Assembly: GCA_037310415.1 (NCBI GenBank) | Contig: CP147780.1 | Coordinates: 608,001 to 672,000, forward strand | Reading direction: 5' to 3' | DNA: 64,000 nt | Source: Candidatus Atabeyarchaeum deiterrae | GTDB taxonomy: Archaea > Asgardarchaeota > Atabeyarchaeia > Atabeyarchaeales > Atabeyarchaeaceae | Part shown: one piece after another, positions 15,657-46,042 of the stretch | Layout of the letters: each line of letters begins with the position of its first letter | Numbering within the stretch: position 1 is the stretch's first letter | Made by a program: the position numbers and the translations under genes | The notes under the pieces: generated by a model | What the model was told of the DNA's origin: nothing | Database searches by the model: none | Seen by the model: only the letters and a program-made list of their open reading frames with translations

Positions 15657-15766
15657 TGGCGGGCCCGGAGGGATTTGAACCCACGACCACCGGCTGTCCG
15701 CAGATGCGCCAATTATCTCCAAGCACTTCGCAGGCCGGCGCCCTATCCTGACTAGGCCACGGGCCC
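15657..15766 (-). tRNA. tRNA-Arg(GCG) with 32-nt intron at 37/38 (15696-15727)
   Basis: Cloverleaf with CCA end; BHB helix CUGC/GCGG, bulges GAA and ACA. Confidence 0.95.
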
Positions 15767-17318: not shown

Positions 17319-17915
17319 ATGGCAGAAGAACCTTTTGGCGAGAAAAGCGAGGAAGAACCAGAAAAACAGGAAATTGAGGAAGCCCCGATTCCAGAGAAAC
17401 CCAAGGCTTTTCTCTCTGATTTACAGACCATCATAAAGAAAGGCGTGGAAGACGTATACAACCGAGGTTTCTACGGCACAAAACAAGAAGACGGAACGCT
17501 ACTGCTATCACCAGTAGAGACCATGTTCTCTCTTGAAAGAAACAGAATCGAATTACACGACGAGAGGACTGGAACTCAGATAGATCTCTACGAGTACCTG
17601 CAAAGACTATATGACAAACACCAAGATCTGTGGACACAGTACCTAGTCTACAGAGACTTAAGAAGCAGAGGATACATCGTGAAGCAAGGTCTCAGTGAGG
17701 AGATCCCTTTCAGAGTGTATCCGAGGGGGAGCGAAATCGGCAAAGACACCTCCAAGTATCTGATCTACATAGTTAAAGAAGGCGTACCGATCGAGTTAAG
17801 CAAACTCGACAAAGCAACAACGACAGTAAAAGGCATAGGAAAGAAACTAATACTCGCCGTACTCAACAGACAAGGGGAAGCAACTTATTACCAGATCTCA
17901 CAAGTAAGCATTTGA
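17319..17915 (+). CDS. endA: tRNA-intron endonuclease, probably the structural (non-catalytic) subunit
   Basis: YLVYRDLRSRGYIVK..G..FRVY and KKLILAV motifs; catalytic Tyr and His positions replaced (GLSEE, KDTS). Confidence 0.88.
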   Translation: MAEEPFGEKSEEEPEKQEIEEAPIPEKPKAFLSDLQTIIKKGVEDVYNRGFYGTKQEDGTLLLSPVETMFSLERNRIELHDERTGTQIDLYEYLQRLYDKHQDLWTQYLVYRDLRSRGYIVKQGLSEEIPFRVYPRGSEIGKDTSKYLIYIVKEGVPIELSKLDKATTTVKGIGKKLILAVLNRQGEATYYQISQVSI

Positions 17916-17923
17916 AATTCAAA

Positions 17924-19072
17924 CTAAGGTTTCTTGGCTATGAATGAACTAGGCATTTTGATAACATCAGCCTTCACGATTCGATCCCTGATTTTCACCC
18001 CAACAATCGCACCCTTCTTCGCAAACTTCCTCTTCACGTACGCCACCGCTATTCCCTTTTCAAGAACAGGAGAGTACGTCCCACTCGTGACACGACCGAT
18101 CACTTGCCCTGCCCGAACGATATCGTAGCCACTTCGCGGAATTCCTTTGTCTAGGAGAATCAATCCGATTCGAAGACGCCTAATTCCCATCCGTCTCTGT
18201 CTGAGTAACGCTTTCTTACCAATGAAAGATTTTTTCTTGAACTTCACGAAGAATTTCAATCTAGCTTCCAAGGGGGTTGTATGCTCATCAATATCCTGAC
18301 CATACAAGGGCATACCAGCCTCCAGTCTAAGAGTATCTCTGCAGCCCAATGCACAGGGCTTTATCCCGAATTCCTGCCCTGCGCTCAATATGGCTTCGAA
18401 TAGCTTAACCGCCTTAGCAGATTCATGAAATGGAACGCCGAACACACAAACCTCGAACCCGTCCTCACCAGTATATCCCGTTCTCGAGATCAGAACATTA
18501 AGCCCTCCAAGCTCAGTTTTCTTCACCGCAAATCTGGAAATCTCGTCAAGCTTCTCTGCAGTTAATTTCTGTAGAGCCGCTTCAGCCTTCTGCCCTTGCA
18601 CCGCAAACATGGGAGTAGAATCCGAGATGTTTTCGACTAGGACGTCGTACTTCTTGCTGCGTTTCATGACCCAGTCGAGATCCTTTTCTCTGTTAGAAGC
18701 ATTTACAACAACATAGAATTCATGGCGATCATATCGATACACGAACAGGTCATCAATTATGCCGCCATCAGGCCTGCACATCAAAGTGTACTCTGAGAGT
18801 CCCGTCTTTAGTCGTGTGAAATCATTCGTGGTCAAGTGGTTAATAAAGCGACGTGAATCTGGCCCAGTCACCTTGAATCTACCCATATGAGTTATGTCGA
18901 AGATGCCAACAGATTTTCTTACTGCCATGTGTTCTGCGACAATTCCAGTATTGTCGTACCAGAGAGGCATTTGAAAACCTGCGAATACGCTCATATGTCC
19001 CCCGTGAGAGACATGCCAGTTGTAAAGGTGGGTCTTCCGAGCCTCTTGCCCTTTGGACAAGGCAATCACCAC
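17924..19072 (-). CDS. gcvT: Glycine cleavage system aminomethyltransferase T
   Basis: FDITHMG, SRTGYTGEDGFE and RDTLRLEAGMPLYG motifs. Confidence 0.97.
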   Translation of the reverse strand: MVIALSKGQEARKTHLYNWHVSHGGHMSVFAGFQMPLWYDNTGIVAEHMAVRKSVGIFDITHMGRFKVTGPDSRRFINHLTTNDFTRLKTGLSEYTLMCRPDGGIIDDLFVYRYDRHEFYVVVNASNREKDLDWVMKRSKKYDVLVENISDSTPMFAVQGQKAEAALQKLTAEKLDEISRFAVKKTELGGLNVLISRTGYTGEDGFEVCVFGVPFHESAKAVKLFEAILSAGQEFGIKPCALGCRDTLRLEAGMPLYGQDIDEHTTPLEARLKFFVKFKKKSFIGKKALLRQRRMGIRRLRIGLILLDKGIPRSGYDIVRAGQVIGRVTSGTYSPVLEKGIAVAYVKRKFAKKGAIVGVKIRDRIVKADVIKMPSSFIAKKP

Positions 19073-44357: not shown

Positions 44358-44524
44358 TTCAGTACTCCTCCAGATCGATTCTGGCTACGTCCTTGGAGTA
44401 TGGGATCCATTATTAAGGTTACTGTTGCAGCCGTTCTACCGTTTGCGGGAGAAGAAAGGTTAAATTATGTATTCTGAAGAATGTGTCATATATAACCCCA
44501 ACACGAGTTTCTTTGGAGGATGTA

Positions 44525-45900
44525 ATGAACTTGGAGACAGATTCGTTGCGGCAGACCTATTCTAGAGTCAAAGACTTGCTGCGCGAACATCACAAATGGT
44601 TTGACAATAGCATTCCATTGATAGCAAGTGAGAATGTTCCAAGTCCTGCTATCCGTGCAGCTATCGTTTCAGACTTTGGCAACCGGTATGCTGAAGGCTG
44701 GCCTGGAGAGTGAATGCTCGTTCGGTCATGGTATGAGCATTCCCCAGAAAGCGCGTCTACGCCGGTACCAAATATATCGACCAGGTTGAACTGATCTGTG
44801 GTGAGTTAGCTAGAAGGCTCTTCAAGGCTGAGTTTGCAGATGTTAGGCCGATCTCGGGCGTCGTAGCCAACTTAGCGCTTTATACTGCCTTCACTGAACC
44901 AGGGGACAGAATGCTGGCCTTGCCAATCCCCTCTGGTGGCCATATTAGCCATGCAAAGAAGGATCTTGGCGGAACTGCGGGAGCCGTACATGGACTGAAA
45001 GTCCGATACTTTGAATACGATGAGAAAGAGTTCAATATTGATGTTGACGAAAGCGTCAAGCGTATCAGAAAGATGATCAAGAAAGGAAAGGTCATTAACC
45101 TTCTCATGTTCGGTGCGAGCGTCTTTCTCTTTCCTCACCCCGTCAGAGAGTTCAGAGACATCGCGGATGAAATGGGCGCCTTCATAGCGTACGATGGTGC
45201 CCATGTCGCTGGACTGATTGCTGGAGAGCGCTTTCAAGATCCTCTAAGGGAAGGTGCCGATGTCTTTTCTATGAGTACCCACAAGACATTACCAGGACCA
45301 CAAGGCGGTGCTCTACTCTCTTGGCAGAAGTACGGCGAACGCATAAAAAAGGCAGTTTTCCCGGGATTAACAAGCAACCATCATCTGAACACGGTCGCTG
45401 GGAAGACCATAGCTTTTCTTGAAATGCTGGCATTCGGCAAGGAGTACGCTGGGCAGATTATCGCAAACGCGAAGGCACTCGGACAAGCTCTCCATGAGGA
45501 AGGTTTCAATGTTCTTGCCGGACATAAGGGATTCACTGAGTCACACACTCTCTTGGTCGATGTAACAAACACTCCTCTCAAGAATGGTCATGCTTGCGAG
45601 AAGGCATTGGAAGCTGCGAACATCATCATAAACAGGAATCTCTTACCTTGGGACATAAGGGAGGGTCGTAACTATCTAGCTCCTGGAGGAATAAGGCTAG
45701 GCACCAGTGAGGTCACAAGGATCGGTATGAAAGCATCAGATATGAAACAAATAGCGACTTTCATGAAACGGGTTATCTTTGATCACAAAGATCCATCTGC
45801 CGTGGGTCAAGAAGTGGAAGGCTTCAGGCGATCTTTCAAGAAAGTCAAGTATTGCTTTGAGTCCCAGACGGGTGCTTACGAGTATTTCGACATAAAGTGA
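44525..45900 (+). CDS. glyA: Serine hydroxymethyltransferase, split by a 41-nt intron (exons 44525-44708 and 44750-45900; 444 aa)
   Basis: LIASEN and NRYAEGWPG in exon 1; ERVYAG, GGHISH, YDGAH and STHKTLPGPQGG (PLP Lys) in exon 2. Confidence 0.95.
44709..44749 (+). other. BHB intron in glyA mRNA
   Basis: Central helix CUGG/CCAG, bulges AGA and AAA, inner stem GAAUGCUC/GAGCAUUC; standard cuts restore the frame. Confidence 0.88.
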
Positions 45901-46042
45901 TGTGAGGATCGACATCCACTATAGTTCTTAAATACTATTAGACCTTCTTTATCTATTGTAGAGGGAGACTAGAGATACTTTTTCATTTGTGAGAACAGAA
46001 CTATGAAGTTCAGTATGCCAACTTGTTACTGGAGGTTTTCAT

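What the first reader, a model, noticed from the sequence alone, without database searches (positions are those of the whole stretch)
44699..44760. tRNA-type bulge-helix-bulge intron inside the protein-coding gene glyA
Seen: SHMT homology stops at ...YAEGWPGE-TGA and resumes 41 nt later in another frame (RVYAGTKYID). Both frames contain a stop within the insert (44711 and 44734). The junction folds as a BHB: outer GC/GC pairs, 4-bp helix CUGG(44703-06)/CCAG(44744-47), 3-nt bulges AGA and AAA, and inner stem GAAUGCUC/GAGCAUUC. Cutting after the second base of each bulge, the established EndA rule, removes 44709-44749 and yields CCT GGA GAG CGC GTC TAC (WPGERVYAG), a full 444-aa SHMT. Known: cbf5 in crenarchaea is the classic archaeal mRNA intron. 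Inference: this lineage splices a metabolic mRNA with the tRNA machinery, so automated annotation would call a false pseudogene, and more such introns may exist genome-wide. It could couple one-carbon metabolism to EndA/RtcB activity.
Basis: partly seen in the sequence, partly recalled or inferred. Interest (0 to 1): 0.95.

Follow-up and report, generated by a model that had tools for sequence, protein, structure and literature searches.

The report
tRNA-type intron inside Asgard glyA
The serine hydroxymethyltransferase gene of this wetland Asgard archaeon is interrupted by a 41-base intron shaped like a tRNA intron, so its mRNA almost certainly has to be cut and rejoined by the tRNA-splicing enzymes, a process published so far for only one archaeal protein gene (cbf5).

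Summary
glyA (SHMT) is split by 41 nt at window 44709-44749. [quoted passage not shown] Cutting after the second nucleotide of each bulge joins Pfam SHMT positions 4-55 and 56-399 without a gap and gives a 444-aa enzyme.

The reading as a spliced BHB intron is strongly supported, but by computation only:
- Nine further copies carry an insert at the same site. These are two same-family genomes and seven metagenome contigs. Their hairpins differ in sequence and length (27-41 nt), the BHB frame is identical, and some stem changes are compensatory.
- Intronless close relatives read exactly the predicted junction, WPGERVYAG.
- Both exons are under strong purifying selection (dN/dS 0.04-0.12). This includes 53 codons just after the insert that have no start codon.
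- An (alpha-beta)2 EndA and RtcB are encoded in the genome.
- Five other genes of this genome (valS, gatE, MTAP, a radical-SAM gene, a RuBisCO-like gene) are split the same way.
- Other lineages carry BHB introns at two further glyA sites.

Public RNA data did not cover the junction, so splicing itself is not shown.

The papers I could search document such splicing only for cbf5. This scan has already noted the same phenomenon many times on other Asgard DNA. The proposed link to one-carbon regulation has no support.

The parts
44460..44467 (+). TATA-like box TTAAATTA upstream of glyA (inferred promoter element)
   Evidence: The block GGTTAAATTATG is identical in G000 and G002 and differs by one base in G001 (GATTAAATTATG), at the same distance upstream of glyA. 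Its function is inferred.
44515..44519 (+). GGAGG ribosome-binding-like motif, 5 nt before the ATG at 44525
   Evidence: Read directly from the sequence. It is also present before the start in G001 and G002.
44525..44708 (+). glyA exon 1 (61 codons plus the first base of the junction codon GAG)
   Evidence: Matches Pfam SHMT profile 4-55 and 4bhd residues 9-55. dN/dS between intron-bearing genomes is 0.07-0.12.
44701..44702 (+). 5' strand of the short outer (exon-exon) helix GC, pairing with 44751-44752
   Evidence: invariant in the 4 sequences of alignment A1. RNAalifold extends the helix by 3 more pairs beyond a G.G mismatch.
44703..44706 (+). 5' strand of the 4-bp central BHB helix (CUGG, exonic)
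   Evidence: Pairs with CCAG 44744-47 and is identical in all 10 site-A copies.
44707..44709 (+). 5' three-nucleotide bulge AGA, with the predicted cut between 44708 and 44709
   Evidence: The cut rule is given in PMC4090602.
44709..44749 (+). 41-nt BHB intron
   Evidence: Its removal gives a gapless SHMT. The spliced junction equals that of intronless relatives L045 and L046. Homologous inserts of 27-41 nt lie at the same site in 9 other sequences.
44710..44743 (+). Intron hairpin (inner helix h'): G44710-C44743, U44711 bulged, an 8-bp stem 44712-19 with 44735-42, and a 15-nt loop
   Evidence: Searches show two compensatory pairs, G-C/A-U and U-A/C-G. One search shows unrelated hairpin sequences in L061 and L062 at the same place.
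44744..44747 (+). 3' strand of the central helix (CCAG, intronic)
   Evidence: Invariant in all 10 site-A copies although it is non-coding and synonymous sites are saturated.
44748..44750 (+). 3' three-nucleotide bulge AAA, with the predicted cut between 44749 and 44750
   Evidence: In G002 and five metagenome copies (L052, L055, L056, L057, L064) the bulge is AUA. A cut one base earlier there would create a UAG stop, so the cut after the second bulge base is the one that works.
44750..45900 (+). glyA exon 2 (last two bases of the junction codon, 382 codons, stop at 45898-45900)
   Evidence: Matches Pfam SHMT 56-399 at 6.6e-62 and 4bhd at 2.9e-118. There is no ATG/GTG/TTG in frame before 44911, yet codons 1-53 have dN/dS of about 0.04.
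17319..17915 (+). Splicing endonuclease EndA, structural (beta-type) subunit, 198 aa
   Evidence: PF01974 hit of 70.4 bits. The ORF lacks the catalytic His seen in the second copy. The alpha-type copy is at G000:C1:215557-215811 (-), and RtcB is at C1:982706-984013.

Best explanation
The 41 nt at 44709-44749 are an archaeal bulge-helix-bulge (BHB) intron in the pre-mRNA of glyA, the only canonical SHMT of this Asgard archaeon. The organism is probably Atabeyarchaeia-2 from wetland soil.

Proposed mechanism:
1. The transcript folds so that exonic CUGG pairs with intronic CCAG. This 4-bp helix is flanked by two 3-nt bulges and by an intron hairpin.
2. The heterotetrameric (alpha-beta)2 splicing endonuclease cuts after the second base of each bulge.
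3. RtcB joins the exons to ...CCU GGA G|AG CGC GUC... and probably circularises the intron.
4. Only the spliced mRNA encodes the 444-aa enzyme. Unspliced mRNA ends after 62 codons.

Shown here: the anatomy, the exact junction, conservation with covariation, selection on both exons, presence of the enzymes, and parallel cases in the genome.

Inferred: cleavage and ligation themselves.
For: 1. The join is gapless: Pfam SHMT 4-55 plus 56-399, and 4bhd residues 9-55 plus 57-421.
2. Intronless relatives at 81% identity (L045, L046), and more distant ones (L047, L048), read WPGERVYAG with no extra base. This is exactly the predicted spliced sequence.
3. An insert lies at the same site in G001 (38 nt), G002/LC30 (41), L052 (40), L055 (41), L056 (40), L057 (41), L064 (40), L061 (27) and L062 (32). 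All share the CUGG/CCAG helix and 3-nt bulges. Loops have diverged, and L061 and L062 have unrelated hairpins that still abut the bulge.
4. On four copies, 98% of cells are paired against 23-45% when partners are slid, and two pairs changed on both sides. RNAalifold finds the same helices on its own.
5. Between intron-bearing genomes, non-synonymous differences (pN) are 0.05-0.13 and synonymous differences (pS) are 0.6-0.8. This holds for exon 1, for the first 53 exon-2 codons (which have no in-frame start codon) and for the rest of the gene.
6. In six copies the 3' bulge is AUA. Only the cut after the second bulge base avoids a UAG there.
7. Two EndA genes (one alpha-type with the catalytic His, one beta-type) and one RtcB gene are present. 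Asgard (alpha-beta)2 EndA carries the loop linked to relaxed BHB use (PMC5829648).
8. Five other genes in the genome are restored by the same rule, four of them with matching Pfam coordinates: valS 2-73/75-414, MTAP 2-173/176-232, gatE, and the RuBisCO-like gene. The radical-SAM gene rests on the restored CxxxCxxC motif, because its first half gave no Pfam hit.
9. The published genome paper reports introns in 92-95% of tRNA genes (PMC11291895).
Against: There is no RNA evidence. The only RNA contig found lies on 45419-45620 and does not reach the junction.

The outer exon-exon helix has only 2 bp before a mismatch, and the inner helix has a one-base bulge. The motif is therefore slightly relaxed, and cleavage by this EndA is untested.

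The minimum-energy fold of the region is not the BHB and is not more stable than shuffled sequence (z = -0.72).

A second SHMT-family paralogue exists, so the gene is not strictly proven essential.

Covariation within the close clade rests on few, related sequences.
Confidence: 0.86

Rival explanations
1. The interrupted glyA is a decaying pseudogene carrying a short insertion, and the SHMT-like paralogue at G000:C1:82750-83808 does the work.
For: A second SHMT-family ORF of 392 aa exists (148.5 bits). It is also kept in G001 and G002.
Against: dN/dS is 0.04-0.12 on both sides of the insert, with synonymous sites saturated. The insert has been retained at the same site in 10 sequences from several lineages. 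The paralogue lacks the YAEG.PG.RYY motif (it reads HRYTAPDKFYMG) and scores lower. Single-function genes such as valS and gatE are interrupted in the same way.
Confidence: 0.03
2. The gene is expressed without RNA splicing. Either it makes two polypeptides (62 aa plus about 329 aa) that assemble, or the ribosome bypasses or frameshifts over the insert.
For: Gene callers do produce two ORFs. Translational bypass of about 50 nt is known in phage T4 gene 60 (general knowledge).
Against: There is no ATG/GTG/TTG in the exon-2 frame before 44911, yet the 53 codons before it are under strong purifying selection.

Frame 1 closes at 44711 and the exon-2 frame opens only at 44737, so no single frameshift can connect them.

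A hop would need matching take-off and landing codons. The codon before CGC is AAG in G000 and UAG in G002, against the take-off codon GAG.

Insert lengths of 27-41 nt vary in phase.
Confidence: 0.04
3. The insert is removed at the RNA level, but by something other than EndA and RtcB, for example another nuclease and ligase, or self-cleavage.
For: No enzyme assay was possible. The outer helix is weak.
Against: The only elements conserved across unrelated hairpins are the ones that define an EndA substrate: a 4-bp helix, two 3-nt bulges and an abutting hairpin. The cut-after-second-base rule lands exactly on the junction in glyA and in five other genes. At 27-41 nt the insert is far too short for a group I or II intron, and no Rfam family matches there.
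Confidence: 0.05
4. The 41 nt are an assembly or sequencing artefact.
For: None found.
Against: Homologous inserts occur in two curated complete genomes, in a MAG from another study (LC30), and in seven contigs from JGI, ENA and NCBI assemblies.
Confidence: 0.01

Closest known systems
cbf5 pre-mRNA BHB intron of Crenarchaeota (Aeropyrum, Sulfolobales, Desulfurococcales; Watanabe 2002, Yoshinari 2006, Yokobori 2009 = PMC2738675)
   Same: Both are short introns inside a protein-coding gene with a BHB motif at the exon-intron borders. Both sit in a host with a hetero-oligomeric EndA. Both show presence and absence among relatives, which implies gain and loss, and both are mis-annotated by gene callers.
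   Different: The gene differs (a metabolic enzyme, glyA) and so does the phylum (Asgard, Atabeyarchaeia). Here the intron is one of at least six in the same genome, and glyA carries BHB introns at three different sites in different lineages. Splicing of cbf5 was shown by RT-PCR and in vitro cleavage, whereas here it is inferred. PMC2738675 states that no gene other than cbf5 had confirmed splicing.
Archaeal pre-tRNA and rRNA BHB introns (canonical hBHBh' and relaxed HBh'/hBH forms; Marck and Grosjean 2003; PMC4090602)
   Same: The motif is identical (a 4-bp helix and two 3-nt bulges) and so is the cut position. The same EndA and RtcB enzymes act. The source lineage has introns in 92-95% of its tRNA genes, many at non-canonical positions (PMC11291895).
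   Different: The substrate here is an mRNA, so splicing decides the reading frame and competes with translation. No mature tRNA body is available to help recognition.
HAC1/XBP1 unconventional mRNA splicing in eukaryotes (IRE1 plus tRNA ligase/RtcB)
   Same: Both are spliceosome-independent removal of a short frame-changing intron from an mRNA, with an RtcB-type or tRNA ligase joining the exons.
   Different: The nuclease is IRE1, which recognises stem-loops rather than a BHB. That splicing is a regulated stress switch, and nothing here indicates regulation.

Membership tests
Archaeal BHB (EndA-dependent) intron in a pre-mRNA (cbf5 type) | A 4-bp central helix flanked by two 3-nt bulges on opposite strands | tested here: met
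   CUGG/CCAG with bulges AGA and AAA. The same frame is found in all 10 site-A copies.
Archaeal BHB (EndA-dependent) intron in a pre-mRNA (cbf5 type) | An inner (intron) helix continuing from the motif | tested here: met
   G-C pair, then a 1-nt bulge, then an 8-bp stem in G000. In L061, L062 and the site-B copies the hairpin abuts the motif perfectly.
Archaeal BHB (EndA-dependent) intron in a pre-mRNA (cbf5 type) | An outer (exon-exon) helix, as in the strict hBHBh' form | tested here: inconclusive
   Only 2 G-C pairs come before a G.G mismatch, with 2-3 further pairs after it. This fits a relaxed HBh'-like form, which (alpha-beta)2 EndAs with the L1 loop accept (PMC5829648).
Archaeal BHB (EndA-dependent) intron in a pre-mRNA (cbf5 type) | Cutting after the second bulge base restores an uninterrupted, homologous reading frame | tested here: met
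   Searches show the gapless join, and one search shows the identical junction in intronless relatives. The AUA bulge excludes the neighbouring register.
Archaeal BHB (EndA-dependent) intron in a pre-mRNA (cbf5 type) | The structure is maintained by compensatory change while the sequence drifts | tested here: met
   Two double changes occur in the close clade, and distant copies have wholly different hairpins. The sequences are few and related, so the strength is moderate.
Archaeal BHB (EndA-dependent) intron in a pre-mRNA (cbf5 type) | The cognate splicing endonuclease and RNA ligase are encoded | tested here: met
   EndA alpha-type and beta-type genes and RtcB are present.
Archaeal BHB (EndA-dependent) intron in a pre-mRNA (cbf5 type) | Spliced mRNA and/or an excised (circular) intron is observed | tested here: inconclusive
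   One RNA contig lies on 45419-45620 only, and the junction is not covered.
Group I / group II self-splicing intron | A ribozyme core of hundreds of nucleotides, detectable by Rfam | tested here: not met
   The insert is 27-41 nt, and the only Rfam hit in the window is a tRNA.
Programmed ribosomal frameshift or translational bypass | One slippery site joining two overlapping open frames, or matched take-off and landing codons | tested here: not met
   The two frames do not overlap (stops at 44711 and 44734). No matched codons exist, and the would-be landing codon is UAG in G002.
Intein | An in-frame insertion, a multiple of 3 without stops, encoding splicing motifs | tested here: not met
   The insert is 41 nt and has stops in both relevant frames.

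The most novel reading that the evidence does not exclude
glyA is one visible member of a dynamic population of EndA-spliced introns in the protein-coding genes of Atabeyarchaeia and other Asgard lineages, and possibly of Bathyarchaeia.

These introns are repeatedly gained and lost, even at three different sites of one gene. They appear to prefer a G/C-rich codon ending in A (GGA in four of the six cases here) followed by one more base. This places them inside glycine-rich catalytic motifs, and all six verified cases in this genome are phase 1.

If so, the closest prokaryotic relatives of eukaryotes routinely need mRNA splicing to express core metabolism and translation genes, and their gene catalogues are systematically under-called.
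Probability: 0.55. Interest if true: 0.9.

Novelty: new member of a known kind. Interest (0 to 1): 0.8.

Why it matters
In the papers I could search, protein-gene splicing by the tRNA machinery is documented in Archaea only for cbf5 of Crenarchaeota (PMC2738675). The genome paper for this lineage reports the flood of tRNA introns but says nothing about mRNA introns or glyA.

A housekeeping enzyme of one-carbon metabolism that can only be made after such splicing extends the phenomenon to Asgard archaea. The same holds for valS and gatE in this genome. Asgard archaea are the group closest to eukaryotes, so this bears on how interrupted genes and mRNA splicing could be tolerated before the spliceosome.

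There is also a practical consequence. Public annotations split this gene into two fragments. Metabolic reconstructions and completeness estimates for these lineages will therefore miss or miscall such genes.

Tried and rejected
1. RNA evidence. One RNA run held a 202-nt contig identical to 45419-45620, and three other runs held nothing. The junction was not covered, so this says nothing about splicing.

2. Genome-wide BHB scan plus ORF joining, with shifted-cut controls. One setting gave an excess (67 against 43-52). Other settings gave none (837 against about 880; 23 against about 21 for introns up to 70 nt), and a codon-usage filter did not help. I therefore give no genome-wide count. Only six cases were verified one by one.

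3. Internal control on this genome's tRNA introns. Removing single BHB hits rarely gave a tRNA that Aragorn recognises, because most of these genes hold several introns. This was uninformative.

4. The minimum-energy fold of 44690-44770 is not the BHB and has z = -0.72. Folding energy alone neither supports nor refutes the motif.

5. The intron is not a repeated element. There is no second copy in the genome.

6. Gain or loss. The maximum-likelihood tree nests the intronless L045 and L046 beside G000 (88/85), but the AU test does not reject a single intron-bearing clade (p = 0.22). The order of events stays open.

7. The taxonomy of contigs L058-L063 could not be obtained. Their nearest named SHMTs are labelled Bathyarchaeota, Jordarchaeaceae or Sigynarchaeota.

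8. G142's short open frame is an in-frame TGA, not an intron.

Full report
**Observation.** The window sequence at 44483-45903 shows an SHMT reading frame that ends ...RYAEGWPGE-TGA at 44711-13. It resumes as RVYAGTKYID... from 44752 in another frame, and that second frame is closed upstream by TGA 44734-36. Pfam SHMT (PF00464) matches profile positions 4-55 on the first piece and 56-399 on the second. The solved M. jannaschii enzyme 4bhd aligns residues 9-55 and 57-421. Removing exactly 44709-44749 therefore joins the two halves without gap or overlap. It gives ...CCT GGA G|AG CGC GTC..., and 444 aa from ATG 44525.

The inner helix also has one bulged U (44711) after a possible G44710-C44743 pair. 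The outer helix is short. Folding energy alone is unremarkable.

**Organism and machinery.** The window lies in a single-contig 2.757-Mb genome. Its same-family relatives are a 2.8-Mb complete genome (G001) and the MAG 'Promethearchaeati archaeon LC30' (G002). RNA runs that share words with it are wetland metatranscriptomes.

The paper describing Atabeyarchaeia (GTDB placeholder LC30) from wetland soil reports two complete genomes, of which Atabeyarchaeia-1 is 2.81 Mbp. It reports introns in 92-95% of tRNA genes, many at non-canonical positions (PMC11291895). By inference this genome is Atabeyarchaeia-2. Aragorn finds only 24 tRNA genes here, most with introns, which fits that picture.

The genome encodes two EndA-domain proteins. 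One is a 238-aa ORF with the catalytic histidine region. The other is a 198-aa ORF without it, and it lies in this very window at 17319-17915. One RtcB gene is also present. Asgard EndAs are described as (alpha-beta)2 enzymes with the L1 loop that goes with broad, relaxed-BHB specificity (PMC5829648).

**Comparative evidence at the same site.** G001 and G002 carry an insert at exactly the same place, of 38 and 41 nt. Further copies came from metagenome and assembly contigs: L052 (40 nt), L055 (41), L056 (40), L057 (41) and L064 (40). More distant SHMTs at 63-64% identity also carry one: L061 (27 nt) and L062 (32 nt).

All ten copies share exonic CUGG, the AGA bulge, intronic CCAG and a 3-nt 3' bulge (AAA, AUA, UUA or UAA). 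Loops differ in sequence and length. L061 and L062 have entirely different hairpins that still close directly against the bulge and the central helix.

On the four-sequence alignment A1, 98% of cells pair, against 23-45% when partners are slid. Two pairs changed on both sides: G-C to A-U, and U-A to C-G. RNAalifold recovers the same helices independently.

In six copies the 3' bulge is AUA. Cutting one base earlier would place UAG in frame. Only the cut after the second bulge base works in every copy. This is the textbook rule that follows from the tRNA geometry described in PMC4090602.

**Intronless alleles.** Two contigs at 81% protein identity (L045, L046; nearest named proteins 'Njordarchaeum') have an uninterrupted gene. 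So do more distant ones (L047, L048). They read ...GGC TGG CCC GGA GAG CGA GTC..., which is WPGERVYAG, the predicted spliced junction to the base.

In the SHMT tree the intronless pair groups with the intron-bearing clade (100/100) and sits next to G000 with moderate support. An AU test does not reject a single intron-bearing clade (p = 0.22). One gain is likely. Whether a precise loss followed is open.

Among 400 Asgard species genomes, 292 had a match at the E-value cut-off. Among the 150 best matches listed, only this family shows the short open frame at this site.

**Selection.** Between the three intron-bearing genomes, synonymous sites are saturated (pS 0.6-0.8) while pN is 0.05-0.13, giving dN/dS of 0.04-0.12. 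This holds for exon 1, for the first 53 codons of exon 2, and for the remainder. Those 53 codons contain no ATG, GTG or TTG in frame. They can only be translated if the insert is removed from the message. This rules out a pseudogene and an independently initiated second polypeptide.

A single frameshift cannot connect the frames because both are closed inside the insert. A ribosomal hop lacks matching take-off and landing codons.

A second SHMT-family ORF exists elsewhere in the genome. It replaces the YAEG.PG.RYY motif by YTAPDKFYMG and scores far lower. The interrupted gene is therefore the only canonical SHMT.

**Context in the genome and beyond.** I started from earlier first-stage notes of this scan and checked them myself. 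Five other genes of this genome are restored by the same rule:
- valS: 457151-457181, 31 nt, giving GIDRNG|LPIE.
- A radical-SAM gene: 919007-919059, 53 nt, giving CNLTCPWC.
- MTAP: 938160-938197, 38 nt, giving DVVG|MT.
- gatE: 2222226-2222266, 41 nt, giving CLVEA|DDEPPH.
- A RuBisCO-like gene: 2663481-2663508, 28 nt, giving GSGGG|IHAHP.

Four of these have matching Pfam coordinates on their two halves. The radical-SAM gene's first half gave no Pfam hit, so that case rests on the restored cysteine motif. All six introns, glyA included, are phase 1 and follow a G/C-rich codon ending in A (GGA four times). This regularity is worth testing, but the sample is small and was not drawn at random.

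glyA itself carries BHB introns at two further sites in other lineages:
- Site B lies 12 nt upstream (YAE|GW). The introns are 31-33 nt, with central helix GCGG/CCGU or CCGC, and occur in contigs L058-L060 and L063. They show compensatory stem changes.
- Site C lies at VAGK|A. The intron is 29 nt and occurs in Asgard genus g16 (G019, G029).

**What is missing.** I found no RNA read across the junction. The single RNA contig covers 45419-45620 only. My attempt to count such introns genome-wide from structure and open frames alone did not separate signal from chance.

**Comparison with the literature.** Full-text searches found pre-mRNA BHB splicing documented only for cbf5 of Crenarchaeota. One of those papers states explicitly that no other gene had been confirmed (PMC2738675). 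The Atabeyarchaeia papers and a 2026 preprint on Asgard tRNA introns do not mention mRNA introns.

Within this scan the same phenomenon has already been noted many times in other Asgard genomes, and some notes claim spliced RNA. Those are unchecked notes, and I used them only as leads.

**Verdict.** This is a real feature and very probably a functional BHB intron in glyA. It is a new member of the cbf5-type class, in a new gene and a new phylum. The idea that it regulates one-carbon metabolism is unsupported speculation.

Noticed in passing
window 17319-17915 (+) and 17924-19072 (-): The structural (beta-type) EndA subunit gene lies in this window, back to back with a glycine-cleavage T-protein (aminomethyltransferase-like) ORF. 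The proximity to one-carbon genes is probably a coincidence.
   Followed up: partly
window 15660-15766 (-): An Rfam tRNA hit spans 107 nt for a 71-position model, so the gene is interrupted. Aragorn found no tRNA at all in the window.
   Followed up: no
G000:C1:82750-83808 (L002 1483-2661): A second SHMT-family ORF (392 aa, 44% identical) keeps the PLP-lysine region (STHKSL) but lacks the YAEG.PG.RYY motif. It is conserved in G001 and G002. Its function is unclear.
   Followed up: partly
L058-L060, L063 (about positions 620-660 of each locus): In another lineage glyA has a different BHB intron 12 nt upstream of the G000 site (RYAE|GWVGERVY). It is 31-33 nt, phase 0, with central helix GCGG/CCGU or CCGC, bulges AAU and AGG, and a 9-10 bp hairpin with compensatory changes.
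   Followed up: partly
L031 about 2140-2170 (G019) and L030 reverse strand (G029): A third glyA intron site occurs in Asgard genus g16: 29 nt at HLVAGK|AV(V/A)FAEML. The central helix UGGG/ACCA has one mismatch, and the inner stem has at least 8 bp.
   Followed up: partly
L061, L062 (about 620-660): An intron lies at the same site as in G000, but with unrelated 27- and 32-nt hairpins, in SHMTs whose nearest named relatives are labelled Bathyarchaeota. An intact 441-aa protein (P0035) is sister to L062. The taxonomy of these contigs is unknown.
   Followed up: partly
G000:C1 457151-457181, 919007-919059, 938160-938197, 2222226-2222266, 2663481-2663508: Five further protein genes (valS, radical-SAM, MTAP, gatE, RuBisCO-like) are split by 28-53-nt BHB inserts. 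All are phase 1, after a GGA, GCA or CCA codon plus one base, and the intron's first base is A.
   Followed up: yes
L084 reverse strand, about 1480 (G142): The glyA of a Freyarchaeia-type genome has an in-frame TGA in place of the conserved Gly of YAEGWPGE. It could be a point mutation, an error or recoding. It is not an intron.
   Followed up: no
L055-L057, L061-L063 gene tables: Public gene calls annotate the interrupted glyA as two separate genes (53-87 aa and 329-384 aa), so protein databases hold truncated SHMTs for these lineages.
   Followed up: yes
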